Of a stretch of DNA of 64,000 bases, positions 59,555 to 63,406 are shown in pieces; the first letter of the stretch is position 1; each line of letters starts with the position of its first letter. The DNA is taken from assembly GCF_003334355.1 (NCBI RefSeq), contig NZ_QOWP01000012.1. One strand, 5' to 3'. The notes beneath the pieces are model-generated. The model did no database searches, was not told where the DNA came from, and saw only the letters and a program-made list of their open reading frames with translations. The stretch comes from Escherichia coli. Its GTDB lineage: Bacteria; Pseudomonadota; Gammaproteobacteria; Enterobacterales; Enterobacteriaceae. The translations under genes were made by a program, and so were the position numbers.

Positions 59555-60792
59555 AATGTAGCTGGCGTGAAGGCAATAAGATCGAGTTGCTGGAAAACGG
59601 CGAGCAATATTATCCCGCGGTGTTTAAGGCGATTGGCGAGGCACAAGAACGCATCATTCTTGAAACGTTTATCTGGTTTGAGGATGACGTCGGCAAACAG
59701 CTGCATGCGGCACTACTGGCAGCAGCGCAACGCGGGGTTAAAGCGGAAGTCTTGCTGGATGGCTACGGTTCGCCGGATCTCAGCGATGAGTTTGTCAATG
59801 AACTGACGGCAGCTGGCGTGGTATTTCGCTACTACGATCCCCGCCCTCGCCTTTTTGGTATGCGCACCAATGTGTTTCGCCGGATGCATCGCAAAATTGT
59901 GGTGATCGACGCGCGTATCGCCTTTATTGGCGGGCTGAATTACTCCGCCGAGCATATGTCCAGCTACGGTCCAGAGGCTAAACAGGATTACGCGGTACGC
60001 CTTGAAGGGCCGATTGTCGAAGATATTCTCCAGTTTGAGCTGGAAAACCTGCCTGGACAGAGCGCGGCACGACGCTGGTGGCGACGTCATCACAAAGCGG
60101 AAGAAAATCGCCAGCCGGGAGAAGCGCAGGTATTGCTGGTCTGGCGCGATAACGAAGAACACCGCGATGATATAGAACGCCACTATCTGAAAATGCTCAC
60201 TCAGGCGCGGCGGGAAGTCATTATCGCCAACGCCTACTTCTTCCCCGGCTATCGATTTTTACACGCCTTGCGTAAAGCGGCACGCCGCGGGGTGCGGATC
60301 AAACTGATCATTCAGGGCGAACCGGATATGCCGATTGTCAGAGTCGGCGCGCGCTTGCTGTATAACTATCTGGTTAAAGGCGGCGTTCAGGTGTTTGAGT
60401 ACCGCCGCCGCCCGCTCCACGGCAAAGTAGCATTGATGGACGATCACTGGGCGACAGTAGGGTCCAGTAATCTCGATCCGCTCAGTTTGTCACTGAATCT
60501 CGAAGCAAATGTCATCATCCACGATCGTAATTTTAACCAGACGCTGCGCGATAATCTGAACGGCATTATCGCCGCAGATTGTCAGCAGGTGGATGAAACC
60601 ATGCTGCCCAAACGCACCTGGTGGAACCTGACCAAAAGCGTGCTGGCGTTCCACTTTTTACGCCACTTCCCGGCGCTGGTTGGCTGGCTTCCGGCACACA
60701 CGCCACGTCTGGCGCAGGTTGATCCGCCCGCACAACCGACAATGGAAACGCAGGATCGGGTAGAAACTGAAAACACGGGGGTAAAACCCTGA
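59551..60792 (+). CDS. clsB: Cardiolipin synthase B (ClsB, phospholipase D family)
   Basis: 413-aa ORF; two HKD motifs ([16 protein letters not shown]). Confidence 0.94.
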
Positions 60793-61748
60793 TGAGTAAA
60801 TCACACCCGCGCTGGCGCTTAGCAAAGAAGATCCTCACCTGGCTGTTTTTTATCGCGGTGATTGTGTTGCTGGTGGTCTACGCCAAAAAAGTGGACTGGG
60901 AAGAGGTCTGGAAGGTCATCCGCGACTACAATCGCGTTGCGCTGCTTAGTGCGGTCGGGCTGGTGGTCGTCAGCTATCTGATTTACGGCTGCTATGACCT
61001 GCTCGCCCGCTTTTACTGCGGTCACAAACTGGCGAAGCGCCAGGTGATGCTGGTGTCGTTTATCTGCTACGCCTTCAACCTGACGCTCAGTACCTGGGTC
61101 GGCGGCATTGGTATGCGCTATCGTTTGTACTCTCGTCTGGGGTTGCCCGGTAGCACTATTACGCGGATTTTCTCGCTCAGTATTACCACCAACTGGCTGG
61201 GCTACATTTTACTGGCAGGGATTATCTTTACCGCAGGCGTGGTGGAGTTGCCGGATCACTGGTATGTCGATCAAACTACGCTGCGTATTCTCGGCATTGG
61301 CTTACTGATGATTATCGCGGTTTATTTGTGGTTTTGCGCTTTCGCGAAGCACCGCCATATGACCATCAAAGGGCAAAAGCTGGTGCTGCCTTCATGGAAA
61401 TTCGCCCTCGCTCAGATGCTGATTTCCAGCGTTAACTGGATGGTAATGGGGGCGATTATCTGGCTGTTACTTGGTCAAAGCGTGAACTATTTCTTTGTAC
61501 TGGGCGTGTTACTGGTTAGTAGTATTGCTGGCGTCATCGTGCATATTCCGGCGGGGATCGGTGTGCTGGAAGCGGTGTTTATCGCACTACTGGCTGGGGA
61601 GCATACCTCCAAAGGTACAATTATCGCCGCCCTACTCGCTTACCGTGTGCTGTATTACTTTATCCCACTGCTGCTGGCGCTGATCTGTTACCTGTTGCTG
61701 GAAAGCCAGGCGAAGAAGCTACGGGCGAAAAATGAAGCGGCGATGTGA
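60792..61748 (+). CDS. ybhN: UPF0104-family inner membrane protein YbhN
   Basis: 318-aa polytopic ORF; start overlaps clsB stop. Confidence 0.92.
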   Translation: MSKSHPRWRLAKKILTWLFFIAVIVLLVVYAKKVDWEEVWKVIRDYNRVALLSAVGLVVVSYLIYGCYDLLARFYCGHKLAKRQVMLVSFICYAFNLTLSTWVGGIGMRYRLYSRLGLPGSTITRIFSLSITTNWLGYILLAGIIFTAGVVELPDHWYVDQTTLRILGIGLLMIIAVYLWFCAFAKHRHMTIKGQKLVLPSWKFALAQMLISSVNWMVMGAIIWLLLGQSVNYFFVLGVLLVSSIAGVIVHIPAGIGVLEAVFIALLAGEHTSKGTIIAALLAYRVLYYFIPLLLALICYLLLESQAKKLRAKNEAAM

Positions 61749-61783
61749 AGTTTAGTTAAGTTCTTTAGTATGTGCATTTACGG

Positions 61784-62497
61784 CTAATGAAAAAAACGCG
61801 TATGCCTTTGCCAGACAAGCGTTATAGCTATCGCGGCAAGTATCCCAAAGAAGCCGATAAAATAGTAATAGAGTGTTAATGCACCTGTAAAAGCGCAACG
61901 AACCGGACTCCACAACTCTTCACTATGGCATTTCCCCGCCAATTCAAGGAGCTTATTTCGTCCATGCGAGATAATGCCTGACCATAACACAATCATTAAG
62001 CAACTTATTACCCAAATGGGCCGTTCACTCATTAATGCCGCATTCACGATGATTACCAGGGCCAACCCTGTCAACGTCATCATAATGATAAAACGGTGAG
62101 AACCAGGATCAACATTAAATAATAAACCGGCCAGCATACTGATTAAAAACATCGCGCCCGCAGTGCTGAACACGATGATAATGGCATATACAGGAACTAA
62201 ACTTGCAACGACAATCGCCACCAAAGAGAGTAAAAACAGATATATTACGCCCGCGATGGCGGCATTTATCTTGTTGATATCCTTACTTAAGCCATACATA
62301 CAAAGTAATAATAACCCTATGGCGACATACATTGGTGGTGAATCATATTTGGTTGCCGTAATTTCGAGATACTTAGCTCCCCAGGCTAGTCCTGCGGTTG
62401 CCACCAAACCTAAAGCGGTAATGAGCCATATACCGTTTAATATCCTGGCCTCGTGCTGAAAATCTAATTTATTGCTGTTTTGCGAGTATGATTCCAT
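61784..62497 (-). CDS. ybhM: Bax-inhibitor-1/YccA-family inner membrane protein YbhM
   Basis: 237-aa ORF with 7 predicted TM helices; AT-rich by eye. Confidence 0.9.
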   Translation of the reverse strand: MESYSQNSNKLDFQHEARILNGIWLITALGLVATAGLAWGAKYLEITATKYDSPPMYVAIGLLLLCMYGLSKDINKINAAIAGVIYLFLLSLVAIVVASLVPVYAIIIVFSTAGAMFLISMLAGLLFNVDPGSHRFIIMMTLTGLALVIIVNAALMSERPIWVISCLMIVLWSGIISHGRNKLLELAGKCHSEELWSPVRCAFTGALTLYYYFIGFFGILAAIAITLVWQRHTRFFH

Positions 62498-62653
62498 TCT
62501 TTTAGTTATCCTTAGAAAAAATATTAATATTCACCATCAATAAATTTAAAACCACGCATACAAAATACTTTTGCATTTATGGATACAGAAAACGCTTCCG
62601 CTCGTCCATAAGGCATATTTTATACCTGGTACTTGTTAAGTGTCGTTTTTAGT

Positions 62654-62683
62654 AAGAAAAAAATCCCGACACATGGCCGGGAT
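62654..62683 (-). terminator. Intrinsic terminator downstream of ybhL
   Basis: atcccg...cgggat hairpin followed on the minus strand by a T7 run. Confidence 0.65.
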
Positions 62684-62701
62684 AGTGATGGTGAAAAAGA
62701 A

Positions 62702-63406
62702 TTAACGGCGGTTGCCGAAGATCCGCAACAACATCAGGAACAGGTTGATGAAGTCCAGATACAAGGTTAACGCGCCAAGAATGGAATATTTGCGCAGGTT
62801 CGACGTGTCGCGGGTATCAATCTGCTCACCCATATTTTTCAGTTTCTGCGTGTCATACGCCGTCAATCCGACAAAGACAATCACGCCGATGTAGGTAACT
62901 GCCCACATCAATGCTTCGCTTTTCAACCAGAAGTTGACCAGCGATGCCAGCACAATGCCGATTAACGCCATAAACAGCATATTGCCAAAGCCACTTAAAT
63001 CGCGCTTCGTGGTGTAACCGTACAGGCTCATTGCGCCGAACATCCCGGCAGTAACGACGAAAGTACTGGCGATAGAAGCAGCGGTATAGACAATGAATAT
63101 ACTGGAAAGCGTAAGACCCGTCAGCGCCGAATAAAGCATAAAGAGCATCGTCGTTACACCTGCGCTCAGCTTTTGAATCATCGCTGATAACACAATAACC
63201 AATGCTAATTGCGCGATGATCAGACCGATTAAAAAGACACGGTTAGTGAACAACAGCTCCATCACGGCCGCGGAATTAGCCGCATACCAGGCAACAAATG
63301 CGGTCAGCAACAAGCCAACGGTCATCCAGCCATAGACTTGAGCCATATAAGTTTGCAAGCCAGCCCGGGGTTGTACGATTGAATCAGAACGTGGGAATCT
63401 GTCCAT
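62702..63406 (-). CDS. ybhL: Bax-inhibitor-1/YccA-family inner membrane protein YbhL
   Basis: 234-aa ORF with 7 predicted TM helices; recognised sequence. Confidence 0.92.
   Translation of the reverse strand: MDRFPRSDSIVQPRAGLQTYMAQVYGWMTVGLLLTAFVAWYAANSAAVMELLFTNRVFLIGLIIAQLALVIVLSAMIQKLSAGVTTMLFMLYSALTGLTLSSIFIVYTAASIASTFVVTAGMFGAMSLYGYTTKRDLSGFGNMLFMALIGIVLASLVNFWLKSEALMWAVTYIGVIVFVGLTAYDTQKLKNMGEQIDTRDTSNLRKYSILGALTLYLDFINLFLMLLRIFGNRR

What the first reader, a model, noticed from the sequence alone, without database searches (positions are those of the whole stretch)
61784..63406. Tandem Bax-inhibitor-1 family paralogs with contrasting base composition (ybhM versus ybhL)
Two adjacent, same-strand genes encode 7-TM BI-1/YccA-family proteins. 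By eye ybhL has typical E. coli composition, whereas ybhM is markedly AT-rich and separated by an AT-rich 204-bp spacer. This suggests ybhM is a horizontally acquired paralog inserted next to the resident gene rather than a recent local duplication. The family modulates FtsH proteolysis and Ca2+/H+ leak, and the reason for keeping two copies is unknown.
Basis: partly seen in the sequence, partly recalled or inferred. Interest (0 to 1): 0.3.

Follow-up and report, generated by a model that had tools for sequence, protein, structure and literature searches.

The report
Acquired, fast-evolving BI-1 gene beside ybhL
ybhM is a real, AT-rich, fast-evolving and often-broken copy of a membrane-protein gene, sitting on a small inserted DNA islet next to the conserved ybhL; this is an ordinary kind of acquired gene, and the only hint of something new is that its relatives sit beside toxin-immunity genes.

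Summary
ybhM (61784..62497, -) and ybhL (62702..63406, -) both match Pfam Bax1-I but share only 25% identity. ybhM has the lowest GC (0.42) and GC3 (0.45) and the most atypical codon use of 43 local genes. ybhL has normal GC3 (0.62). The 204-bp spacer has GC 0.33.

In 49 of 56 Enterobacterales species with conserved synteny, ybhL abuts convergent ybhN. The window carries a 906-bp islet (61755..62660, GC 0.40) inserted just after the ybhL terminator.

YbhM belongs to a small clade found only in a few Enterobacteriaceae genera. The clade is never sister to E. coli YbhL, and none of its 20 aligned members keeps both aspartates of the BI-1 pH/Ca2+ sensor.

The insertion is old. Its dS equals that of the flanking genes, its dN is about 14-fold higher (omega 0.32 versus 0.02-0.03), and at least 12% of complete E. 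coli genomes carry an obviously disrupted copy. Copy number at the site varies from 1 to 3.

In relatives the islet also carries SUKH-4 and remote Sip4-like immunity genes, and one homologue lies near vgrG. An immunity-like role against membrane toxins is my favoured guess for function (about 0.3) and is untested.

The parts
62702..63406 (-). ybhL: the conserved, resident BI-1 family gene (234 aa)
   Evidence: ORF. Pfam Bax1-I E 1.1e-62. Aligns to BsYetJ (4PGR) and keeps both sensor aspartates, D185 and D218. It is 84-94% identical across genera. GC3 0.617. Omega 0.027.
62663..62683 (-). Intrinsic terminator hairpin of ybhL. In species with an empty site the same hairpin sits between convergent ybhL and ybhN. 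It marks the left edge of the islet.
   Evidence: Terminator scan: 8-bp stem with 5 GC pairs, followed by a T run. Homology with the empty-site genome L017 ends at window 62661.
61755..62660 (.). Inserted islet of 906 bp (GC 0.400 against 0.515 for the window), consisting of the AT-rich leader/promoter region plus ybhM
   Evidence: Filled-versus-empty site comparison with L017 gives breakpoints at 62661 and 61754. GC. No flanking direct repeats, tRNA gene or recombinase gene.
62498..62701 (-). 204-bp ybhL-ybhM spacer (GC 0.328) that carries ybhM's own promoter and a reported H-NS site
   Evidence: GC. Shimada et al. 2014 (PMC3946193, Table 3) list an RpoD holoenzyme site, ACGACA-16-TATAAA, and an H-NS SELEX site in this spacer.
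62617..62646 (-). Sigma-70-like promoter hexamers (ACGACA, 18 nt, TAAAAT) upstream of ybhM
   Evidence: Consensus scan. The -35 hexamer is the same as in the published SELEX promoter. This is a consensus match only.
61784..62497 (-). ybhM: a divergent BI-1-fold gene (237 aa) of the YbhM-like clade
61749..61783 (.). 35-bp gap between the convergent stop codons of ybhM and ybhN (GC 0.31). The right edge of the islet lies within it.
60792..61748 (+). ybhN: the conserved core gene that flanks the insertion site on the right
   Evidence: ORF, annotation. It is the next gene after ybhL in most Enterobacterales. Omega 0.028.

Best explanation
ybhM lies on a small AT-rich islet (window 61755..62660) that was inserted between the ybhL terminator and the 3' end of ybhN. 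The insertion predates the diversification of E. coli. This junction is a recurrent insertion hot spot in Enterobacteriaceae.

The gene encodes a seven-helix inner-membrane protein with the BI-1 fold. It belongs to a small, fast-evolving clade restricted to a few Enterobacteriaceae genera, and this clade has lost the di-aspartyl pH/Ca2+ sensor of canonical BI-1 channels. ybhM has its own promoter in a spacer reported to bind H-NS. It is dispensable and often disrupted, yet intact copies remain under weak purifying selection.

Shown here:
- the insertion and its boundaries;
- the atypical composition;
- clade membership and loss of the sensor residues;
- the evolutionary rate;
- copy-number and presence/absence variation.

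Inferred function (my estimate about 0.3): YbhM-like proteins act as orphan, immunity-like protective factors in the inner membrane against membrane-targeting, pore-forming toxins delivered by competitors. The reasons are that their relatives are co-operonic with Sip4-like membrane proteins, share the islet with a SUKH-4 immunity gene, in one genus lie near vgrG, and show the diversification and gain/loss pattern of orphan immunity gene arrays.

The origin part alone I put at about 0.8.
For: Composition: lowest GC and GC3 and most atypical codon use of 43 local genes; islet GC 0.40.

Empty site: 49 of 56 syntenic Enterobacterales loci have ybhL and ybhN (or clsB/ybhQ) 27-456 bp apart with no YbhM-like gene. 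Other cargo occupies the same site elsewhere: a PLD-like gene with three Sel1-repeat genes, a small two-gene pair, and a catalase gene with a second unidentified gene. The breakpoints are defined.

Family: phmmer against 1.84 billion representative proteins gives only 97 hits at E<=1e-3. The closest full-length relatives outside the YbhM cluster (25-35% identity) that carry a source name are all from Escherichia, Salmonella, Kluyvera georgiana, Pseudocitrobacter or Superficieibacter.

Clade support and sensor residues. About 40 of 54 other BI-1 proteins in the alignment have aspartate at both sensor columns; none of the 20 YbhM-like and Phytobacter-type proteins does.

Variation in E. coli:
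- A third paralogue X is present in 749-793 of 5426 complete genomes.
- A fourth paralogue, P232, occurs in some Escherichia lineages and one E. coli strain.
- The ybhM CDS matches at >=80% coverage in only 4788 of 5426 genomes, with IS1, IS91 and IS200 events, an internal deletion and an internal stop codon seen in sampled strains.

Rates: ybhM dN 0.0565, dS 0.178, omega 0.32; flanking genes omega 0.022-0.028 with dS 0.12-0.19.

H-NS site and promoter: PMC3946193. Transcript induced 4.6-5.1-fold in O157 on lettuce: PMC6891304.

Immunity context:
- E. coli 042 islet reads ybhM(pseudogene)-DUF3969-152 aa-SUKH-4 immunity-73 aa (Pfam SUKH-4 E 1.5e-4).
- Salmonella has tight operons of a YbhM-like gene followed by two membrane-protein genes, at two different loci, with gaps of -1 to 24 bp.
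- All four of those membrane proteins hit NCBIfam 'immunity protein Sip4' at E 3e-4 to 3.5e-8. Sip4 is the 4-TM inner-membrane immunity protein to the pore-forming type VI secretion system (T6SS) effector Ssp4 (PMC12669606).
- The second Salmonella locus adjoins a TsiV gene.
- The Superficieibacter homologue is followed by an 864-aa gene and then vgrG.
Against: - No cognate toxin gene lies next to ybhM in the window or in any E. coli locus examined.
- The Sip4 similarity is remote, 21-34 bits against a curated cut-off of 240, and a profile search recovered only Salmonella proteins.
- The 864-aa Superficieibacter neighbour is unidentified and looks soluble.
- There are no PADLOC or PHROG matches, and no plasmid or phage carriers.
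- No integrase, tRNA gene or direct repeats mark the islet, so how it inserted is unknown.
- The family has no relatives outside Enterobacteriaceae, and its closest canonical relatives are YbhL-type proteins (Smith-Waterman scores 105-206 against 36-63 for YccA). It may therefore have arisen from ybhL itself.
- YbhM-like genes in Phytobacter and a related genome are GC-rich (0.60-0.61), so AT-richness is not a property of the whole family.
- A 14-fold higher dN could by itself reduce vertically inherited orthologues to about 30% identity.
Confidence: 0.6

Rival explanations
1. ybhM descends from an ancient tandem duplication of ybhL at this locus in an ancestor of Escherichia and Salmonella. 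The spare copy was released from constraint, evolved about 14 times faster, drifted towards AT under mutation bias and low expression, and was then lost precisely in most lineages.
For: YbhM-like genes lie immediately downstream of ybhL, in the same orientation, in Escherichia, Salmonella, Kluyvera georgiana, Pseudocitrobacter, Phytobacter and a related genome. The clade scores higher against YbhL-type proteins than against YccA and has no relatives outside Enterobacteriaceae. dN is 14-fold that of ybhL while dS is equal, which could account for about 30% identity between genera. Tandem pairs of a canonical and a divergent BI-1 gene also occur elsewhere (L102).
Against: It needs very many independent, clean deletions. 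49 of 56 syntenic loci are empty, including all nine Citrobacter genomes sampled, Pseudocitrobacter faecalis, a second Kluyvera lineage and one Escherichia lineage. Copies also exist away from ybhL, in the Salmonella guaA island and the Superficieibacter vgrG region. The same site holds unrelated cargo in other genera. The tested groupings of the clade with E. coli and Salmonella YbhL had no bootstrap support, although the distances are saturated.
Confidence: 0.2
2. ybhM is a functionless remnant on its way to becoming a pseudogene. Its atypical composition, variability and frequent disruption reflect nothing more than neutral decay.
For: At least 12% of complete E. coli genomes lack an intact-length copy: only 4788 of 5426 have >=80% coverage. 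IS insertions, an internal deletion allele and a nonsense allele were seen among sampled strains. Many truncated protein clusters exist, including in Shigella. A reported H-NS site suggests silencing. No phenotype was found in the searchable literature.
Against: Omega is 0.32 (range 0.12-0.40), not about 1, across eight lineages with dS around 0.18. The 237-codon frame is kept in most genomes and in E. albertii and other Escherichia relatives. Clade-wide invariant residues persist despite 25-45% identity. The transcript is induced in O157 on lettuce.
Confidence: 0.15
3. YbhM works like a conventional bacterial BI-1/YccA protein, either as a pH-gated Ca2+/H+ leak channel or as an FtsH substrate and modulator, kept as a condition-specific backup to YbhL and YccA.
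Against: Both sensor aspartates are replaced, by G179 and Y212, and the wider clade has also lost the pair. There is no sequence-level match to any PDB chain at E<=1, whereas YbhL matches YetJ. YccA is the most distant of the three E. coli paralogues (Smith-Waterman score 56). Rapid evolution, copy-number variation and frequent loss are atypical of a housekeeping modulator.
Confidence: 0.2

Closest known systems
BsYetJ / TMBIM (Bax inhibitor-1) pH-sensitive Ca2+ leak channels (PDB 4PGR; Pfam PF01027)
   Different: The two aspartates that form the pH/Ca2+ sensor (D171/D195 in BsYetJ, from my own knowledge of Chang et al. 2014) correspond to D185/D218 in YbhL but to G179/Y212 in YbhM. The whole YbhM-like clade lacks the pair. 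There is no sequence-level PDB hit.
E. coli YbhL (neighbour) and YccA (FtsH protease modulator)
   Same: All three belong to the same Pfam family, and ybhL and ybhM are adjacent on the same strand.
   Different: YbhL is 84-94% conserved between genera, has omega 0.027 and normal codon use. YbhM-like proteins are 25-45% identical between genera, have omega 0.32 and atypical codon use. YccA is the most distant (Smith-Waterman score 56). FtsH interaction was not tested.
Sip4, the 4-TM inner-membrane immunity protein to the Serratia T6SS pore-forming effector Ssp4 (PMC12669606)
   Same: In Salmonella the YbhM-like gene heads a tight operon with two membrane-protein genes whose products remotely match the NCBIfam Sip4 model. 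All are inner-membrane proteins by prediction.
   Different: YbhM itself is not homologous to Sip4. The Sip4-like genes are absent from the window. The similarity is far below the curated cut-off, and no Ssp4-like toxin gene is adjacent.
Orphan immunity-gene arrays of polymorphic toxin systems (orphan cdiI/rhsI arrays, acquired interbacterial defence islands; SUKH superfamily)
   Same: Variable copy number, rapid diversification, AT-rich composition, presence/absence polymorphism, tight same-strand arrays, and co-occurrence with a SUKH-4 immunity gene and a TsiV gene.
   Different: No toxin remnant, no recombinase and no repeated homology blocks were found. No BI-1-fold immunity protein is reported in the searchable literature. 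The comparison with known arrays rests on my general knowledge.
H-NS-silenced, horizontally acquired AT-rich islets of E. coli
   Same: GC 0.40 against 0.515. A published H-NS site and a constitutive promoter lie in the leader. The islet is absent from the syntenic site of most relatives. IS insertions are frequent, in line with H-NS-bound regions being transposition hot spots (PMC11335895, abstract seen).
   Different: The islet is very small (906 bp, one gene) and has no mobility genes. The cargo is a paralogue of the adjacent core gene, and the family is unknown outside Enterobacteriaceae.

Membership tests
Bax1-I / TMBIM (Pfam PF01027) | Significant match to the family profile HMM | tested here: met
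   YbhM E 1.1e-20, 74.8 bits, model positions 3-205 of 207. YbhL E 1.1e-62.
Bax1-I / TMBIM (Pfam PF01027) | Seven-helix membrane fold like BsYetJ | tested here: inconclusive
Bax1-I / TMBIM (Pfam PF01027) | Di-aspartyl pH/Ca2+ sensor (BsYetJ D171 and D195; residue numbers from my own knowledge) | tested here: not met
   YbhL keeps D185 and D218, aligned to the YetJ motifs YD..Q and LYLDFINLF. YbhM has G179 and Y212. None of the 20 YbhM-like and Phytobacter-type proteins has both aspartates, against about 40 of 54 other BI-1 proteins in the alignment.
YccA-type FtsH modulators | Binding to, and degradation by, FtsH through the N-terminal tail | not testable with these tools
   Sequence only: YbhM versus YccA gives a Smith-Waterman score of 56, against 167 versus YbhL. 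The N-terminal tail of YbhM is the most variable part among strains.
Horizontally acquired, H-NS-silenced islet | Composition atypical for the host genome | tested here: met
   Islet GC 0.400 against window GC 0.515. ybhM has the lowest GC and GC3 and the most atypical codon use of 43 genes.
Horizontally acquired, H-NS-silenced islet | Absent from the syntenic site of related species, with defined insertion boundaries | tested here: met
   49 of 56 syntenic loci are empty. The breakpoints are at window 62661 and 61754.
Horizontally acquired, H-NS-silenced islet | H-NS occupancy | not tested
   Literature only: a Genomic SELEX H-NS site in the ybhL>ybhM spacer (PMC3946193 Table 3).
Horizontally acquired, H-NS-silenced islet | Mobility signatures (integrase, tRNA gene, flanking repeats, plasmid or phage copies) | tested here: not met
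   No flanking repeats and no Rfam match. The plasmid hits are mislabelled chromosome-sized or near-identical E. coli records. No phage hit.
Toxin-immunity proteins (T6SS / polymorphic toxin systems) | Genetic linkage to a cognate toxin, or to other immunity genes in an orphan array | tested here: inconclusive
   No toxin gene is adjacent in any locus examined. Linkage to a SUKH-4 gene, to Sip4-like genes and to TsiV. The Superficieibacter copy is two genes from vgrG.
Toxin-immunity proteins (T6SS / polymorphic toxin systems) | Rapid diversification and presence/absence or copy-number polymorphism | tested here: met
   Omega 0.32 against 0.02-0.03 for the flanking genes. One to three copies in Escherichia and three in L016. 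Paralogue X is in about 14% of E. coli genomes.
Toxin-immunity proteins (T6SS / polymorphic toxin systems) | Neutralises a specific toxin | not testable with these tools
   This needs competition or co-expression assays.

The most novel reading that the evidence does not exclude
The YbhM-like clade is a BI-1-fold family recruited as orphan immunity or protective proteins against pore-forming or other membrane-targeting interbacterial toxins. On this reading, the ybhL|ybhN junction of Escherichia and Salmonella is a small interbacterial-defence islet, of which the window strain (near-identical to K-12) retains only ybhM.
Probability: 0.25. Interest if true: 0.65.

Novelty: new variant of a known kind. 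Interest (0 to 1): 0.35.

Why it matters
As stated, the finding is ordinary: an old, reportedly H-NS-bound, acquired gene beside a core paralogue. Three results add value.

- ybhM should not be annotated by transfer from YccA or BI-1, because the sensor aspartates are gone.
- The ybhL|ybhN junction is a recurrent insertion hot spot across Enterobacteriaceae.
- If YbhM-like proteins protect against membrane-targeting toxins, this would be the first BI-1-fold immunity family. It would also give a testable function to an uncharacterised gene that matches in 5400 of 5426 complete E. coli genomes.

Tried and rejected
- Recent local duplication: rejected. The two proteins share 25% identity and fall in separate clades.
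- Mobile-element signatures: none. There are no direct or inverted repeats at the edges and no Rfam hit.
- Plasmid or phage carriage: none. The plasmid hits are mislabelled chromosome-sized or near-identical E. coli records.
- Anti-phage defence: no PADLOC or PHROG match for YbhM, its relatives or their neighbours.
- The search for related loci with the YbhM-like alignment failed because the alignment was too divergent. The single genome scan was therefore spent on YbhL synteny instead.
- Profile search with the YbhM-like alignment returned only the known genera. Profile search with the four Sip4-like proteins returned only Salmonella proteins and did not bridge to Serratia Sip4.
- Pfam on 14 small neighbouring proteins, joined with linkers, gave only SUKH-4. 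The Serglycin hits are linker artefacts. NCBIfam gave one sub-threshold MafI hit.
- The 864-aa Superficieibacter neighbour has no match in Pfam, NCBIfam or the PDB.
- The first neighbour-joining script timed out. The first monophyly test failed only because P0105 (a copy of X) and P0126 (Phytobacter-type) had been left out of the test set.
- Deep branching order is unresolved because distances exceed 1.9 substitutions per site.
- Literature: no functional study of ybhM, no paper on DUF3969, and no paper linking Bax inhibitor proteins with T6SS immunity.
Full report
OBSERVATION. The locus is E. coli. Over the 2.1 kb compared it is 100% identical to several strains and 99.9% identical to K-12, and RefSeq calls both genes 'Bax inhibitor-1/YccA family protein'. 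Both match Pfam Bax1-I, YbhM at E 1.1e-20 and YbhL at E 1.1e-62. They share only 25% identity over 151 residues.

Among 43 annotated neighbouring genes, ybhM has the lowest GC (0.423, z -3.6) and the lowest GC3 (0.454, z -2.7). It also has the most atypical synonymous codon choice and the most rare codons, including 10 ATA and 16 TTA. ybhL has GC 0.487 but an ordinary GC3 of 0.617, so its low overall GC comes from first codon positions, that is from its amino-acid make-up. The 204-bp spacer has GC 0.328. This is the lowest of 26 local intergenic regions but not an outlier.

LOCAL ANATOMY. ybhL ends in a strong hairpin followed by a T run at 62683..62663. The spacer holds sigma-70-like hexamers at 62646..62617. 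Genomic SELEX data place a constitutive RpoD promoter (ACGACA-16-TATAAA) and an H-NS site in this spacer (PMC3946193 Table 3). ybhM converges on ybhN with 35 bp between the stop codons. No repeats, tRNA genes or Rfam families flank the gene.

PRESENCE AND ABSENCE. I used the single genome scan on YbhL, which returned 80 Enterobacterales species with 7-kb flanks, and annotated what follows ybhL by tblastn.
- In 56 loci, ybhL is still followed by ybhN, clsB or ybhQ.
- In 49 of these the gap is 27-456 bp with no YbhM-like gene. They include nine Citrobacter genomes, Enterobacter, Klebsiella oxytoca, Lelliottia, Kosakonia, Pantoea, Erwinia, Superficieibacter, Pseudocitrobacter faecalis and a second Kluyvera lineage.
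- One further empty site is in a genome labelled E. coli whose flanking DNA is only 87% identical to the window, so it represents another Escherichia lineage.

Aligning that empty site to the window puts the breakpoints at 62661, just after the ybhL terminator, and at 61754, six bases from the ybhN stop codon. The window therefore carries a 906-bp insertion with GC 0.400. The same junction holds unrelated cargo in other genera:
- a PLD-like gene with three tandem Sel1-repeat lipoprotein genes;
- a small two-gene pair that may be a toxin-antitoxin module, judged by size only;
- a 488-aa gene that reads as a catalase, with a second gene, identified by eye only.
So this junction is an insertion hot spot.

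THE FAMILY. A filter-only phmmer search of 1.84 billion representative proteins found just 97 hits at E<=1e-3. The nearest full-length relatives outside the YbhM cluster are 25-35% identical. Those that carry a source name come only from Escherichia, Salmonella, Kluyvera georgiana, Pseudocitrobacter and Superficieibacter. Their contexts show a variable array at the same site:
- E. coli IAI1 has ybhL-X-ybhM. X is present in 749-793 of 5426 complete genomes.
- Some Escherichia lineages and strain GF4-3 have ybhL-X-ybhM-P232-DUF3969 followed by small genes.
- Salmonella has ybhL-M235-202 aa-186 aa-ybhN.
- Kluyvera georgiana has ybhL-M235-ybhQ.
- Pseudocitrobacter and an unnamed relative carry one and three YbhM-like genes respectively, interspersed with small ORFs.
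- Phytobacter and a related genome have a single GC-rich copy, GC 0.60-0.61.

Copies also exist away from ybhL. A second Salmonella cassette (M238-203-184) lies downstream of guaA, next to a TsiV gene. The Superficieibacter gene is followed by an 864-aa gene and then vgrG.

PHYLOGENY AND MOTIFS. In a neighbour-joining analysis of 75 BI-1 proteins, the YbhM-like proteins form one 19-member clade in 58% of bootstrap replicates. In 93% of replicates the smallest clade holding the nine core members has 19 or 21 members, the extras being the Phytobacter-type pair. The tested groupings of the clade with E. coli and Salmonella YbhL had 0 of 300 support. Distances are saturated, so the sister group is unresolved. 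Smith-Waterman scores are higher to YbhL-type proteins (105-206) than to YccA (36-63).

YbhL aligns to BsYetJ and keeps both aspartates of the di-aspartyl sensor, D185 and D218. YbhM has G179 and Y212 at those positions. About 40 of 54 other BI-1 proteins in the alignment have aspartate at both columns, whereas none of the 20 YbhM-like and Phytobacter-type proteins does.

TEMPO. Across eight Escherichia strains, ybhM has dN 0.0565, dS 0.178 and omega 0.32, and X has omega 0.35. The flanking genes moaE, ybhL, ybhN and clsB have omega 0.022-0.028 with dS 0.12-0.19.
- Equal dS means the islet has diverged together with its flanks. It predates E. coli diversification, in line with its presence in E. 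albertii and other Escherichia lineages.
- Omega well below 1 argues against pure decay.

The gene is nevertheless dispensable. The CDS matches in 5400 of 5426 complete genomes but reaches 80% coverage in only 4788. Among 60 evenly sampled genomes, five carry an internal deletion allele (a span of about 390 bp instead of 714) and four carry IS1. Strain 042 has an internal stop codon. Strain EC14 has an IS91-associated deletion, and RR1 carries IS5 (PMC5379014). The transcript is induced 4.6-5.1-fold in O157 on lettuce, in a table that also lists espX, espY3 and csgD (PMC6891304).

WHAT IT MIGHT DO. Direct evidence is absent, so the argument is by association.
- In E. coli 042 the islet reads ybhM(pseudogene)-DUF3969-152 aa-SUKH-4 family immunity protein-73 aa. 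Pfam gives SUKH-4 at E 1.5e-4.
- In Salmonella the YbhM-like gene heads tight operons, with gaps of -1 to 24 bp, at two different loci. The two downstream membrane proteins at each locus all hit the NCBIfam model 'immunity protein Sip4' at E 3e-4 to 3.5e-8, far below the curated cut-off.

Together with rapid diversification, copy-number variation, AT-richness and a reported H-NS site, this resembles an orphan immunity array.

Against this reading:
- no toxin gene is adjacent anywhere;
- the Sip4 similarity is remote and did not extend beyond Salmonella;
- the neighbour in the vgrG region is unidentified;
- no defence-system or phage family matches.
I put the immunity-like reading at about 0.3. 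The searchable literature contains no BI-1-fold immunity protein and no functional study of ybhM.

VERDICT.
- the event is old;
- the donor is unknown and possibly enterobacterial;
- ybhM is one unit of a variable array in an insertion hot spot;
- it lacks the BI-1 sensor residues.
An ancient ybhL duplication followed by many precise losses remains a less parsimonious rival (about 0.2). On its own terms the finding is ordinary. The immunity-islet reading is the only part that would surprise a specialist, and it is testable.

Noticed in passing
L002:2568-3272 (E. coli IAI1), inserted between the positions matching window 62498 and 62701: A third tandem BI-1-like gene, 'X' (234-246 aa, GC 0.43, 24-29% identical to YbhM), lies between ybhL and ybhM in 749-793 of 5426 complete E. 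coli genomes. Its closest relatives are the Kluyvera, Superficieibacter and Salmonella copies rather than YbhM.
   Followed up: partly
window 61784-62497 compared with E. coli genome hits H62, H84, H85, H115-H120: ybhM is a hot spot for disruption. Among 60 evenly sampled genomes, four have IS1 insertions and five have an internal deletion allele (a span of about 390 bp instead of 714). IS5, IS91 and IS200 events were seen in individual strains. This fits the published idea that H-NS-bound DNA captures transposons (PMC11335895), which I did not test.
   Followed up: partly
window 62453-62497 (first 15 codons of ybhM) and 61784-61801 (last codons): The cytoplasmic N-terminal tail of YbhM exists in at least three very different versions among strains (MESYSQNSNKLDFQ, MNSRSANNITNDFQ, MKSYSSKNITNDFQ), and the C-terminal tail also varies (RFFH, RFHI, RFQW). 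The helices are much better conserved.
   Followed up: no
L018:8063-9724 (E. albertii NBRC 107761): An AT-rich (GC 0.37) 553-aa phosphoethanolamine-transferase homologue (CptA/EptA-like, far below the MCR cut-offs) is inserted in the islet. ybhM there is reduced to an 81-codon remnant, followed by a P232-like gene and a DUF3969 gene.
   Followed up: partly
L045:7763-12553 (Enterobacter sp. BIGb0383): The same ybhL|ybhN junction holds a 611-aa PLD-like gene followed by three tandem genes of about 327 aa for Sel1-repeat lipoproteins. The layout recalls Tle5/Tli5 T6SS effector-immunity modules; that resemblance is from memory, and only weak NCBIfam hits were obtained.
   Followed up: partly
L009:5001-6900 and L010:2434-6900 (Salmonella enterica, downstream of guaA): A second copy of the three-gene cassette (YbhM-like gene plus two Sip4-like genes, 37-45% identical to the copy at the ybhL locus) sits in an accessory island with TsiV, a Sel1-repeat protein, DUF1266, DjlB_C and a transposase.
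   Followed up: partly
L097:8001-13275 (Superficieibacter electus): The YbhM-like gene is not at the ybhL locus, which is empty in this species (L036). It lies upstream of an 864-aa protein with no detectable family, followed by a T6SS vgrG gene. AT-rich spacers (GC 0.33-0.37) separate the three genes.
   Followed up: partly
L016:1-7227 (unnamed Pseudocitrobacter-like contig): This is the largest array seen: ybhL followed by three YbhM-like genes and nine small ORFs, mostly AT-rich. One 101-aa protein gives a sub-threshold MafI immunity hit (E 0.0056).
   Followed up: partly
L073:7829-8533 and L103:7001-7708: Phytobacter massiliensis and a related genome carry a single YbhM-like gene at the same site, but it is GC-rich (0.60-0.61). 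In L103 it is richer than its flanking genes (0.52), so the family's composition is not uniformly AT-rich.
   Followed up: partly
L102:196-1697 (short metagenomic contig): An apparently non-enterobacterial tandem pair consists of a divergent BI-1 gene (glutamate and glycine at the two sensor positions) followed by a YbhL-like one that is 42% identical to YbhL. Tandem 'canonical plus divergent' BI-1 pairs may therefore arise repeatedly.
   Followed up: no
L054:7821-8416 (Siccibacter colletis): An 80-aa plus 118-aa gene pair with overlapping stop and start codons occupies the ybhL|ybhN junction. By size and layout it may be a toxin-antitoxin pair, but no family match was found.
   Followed up: no
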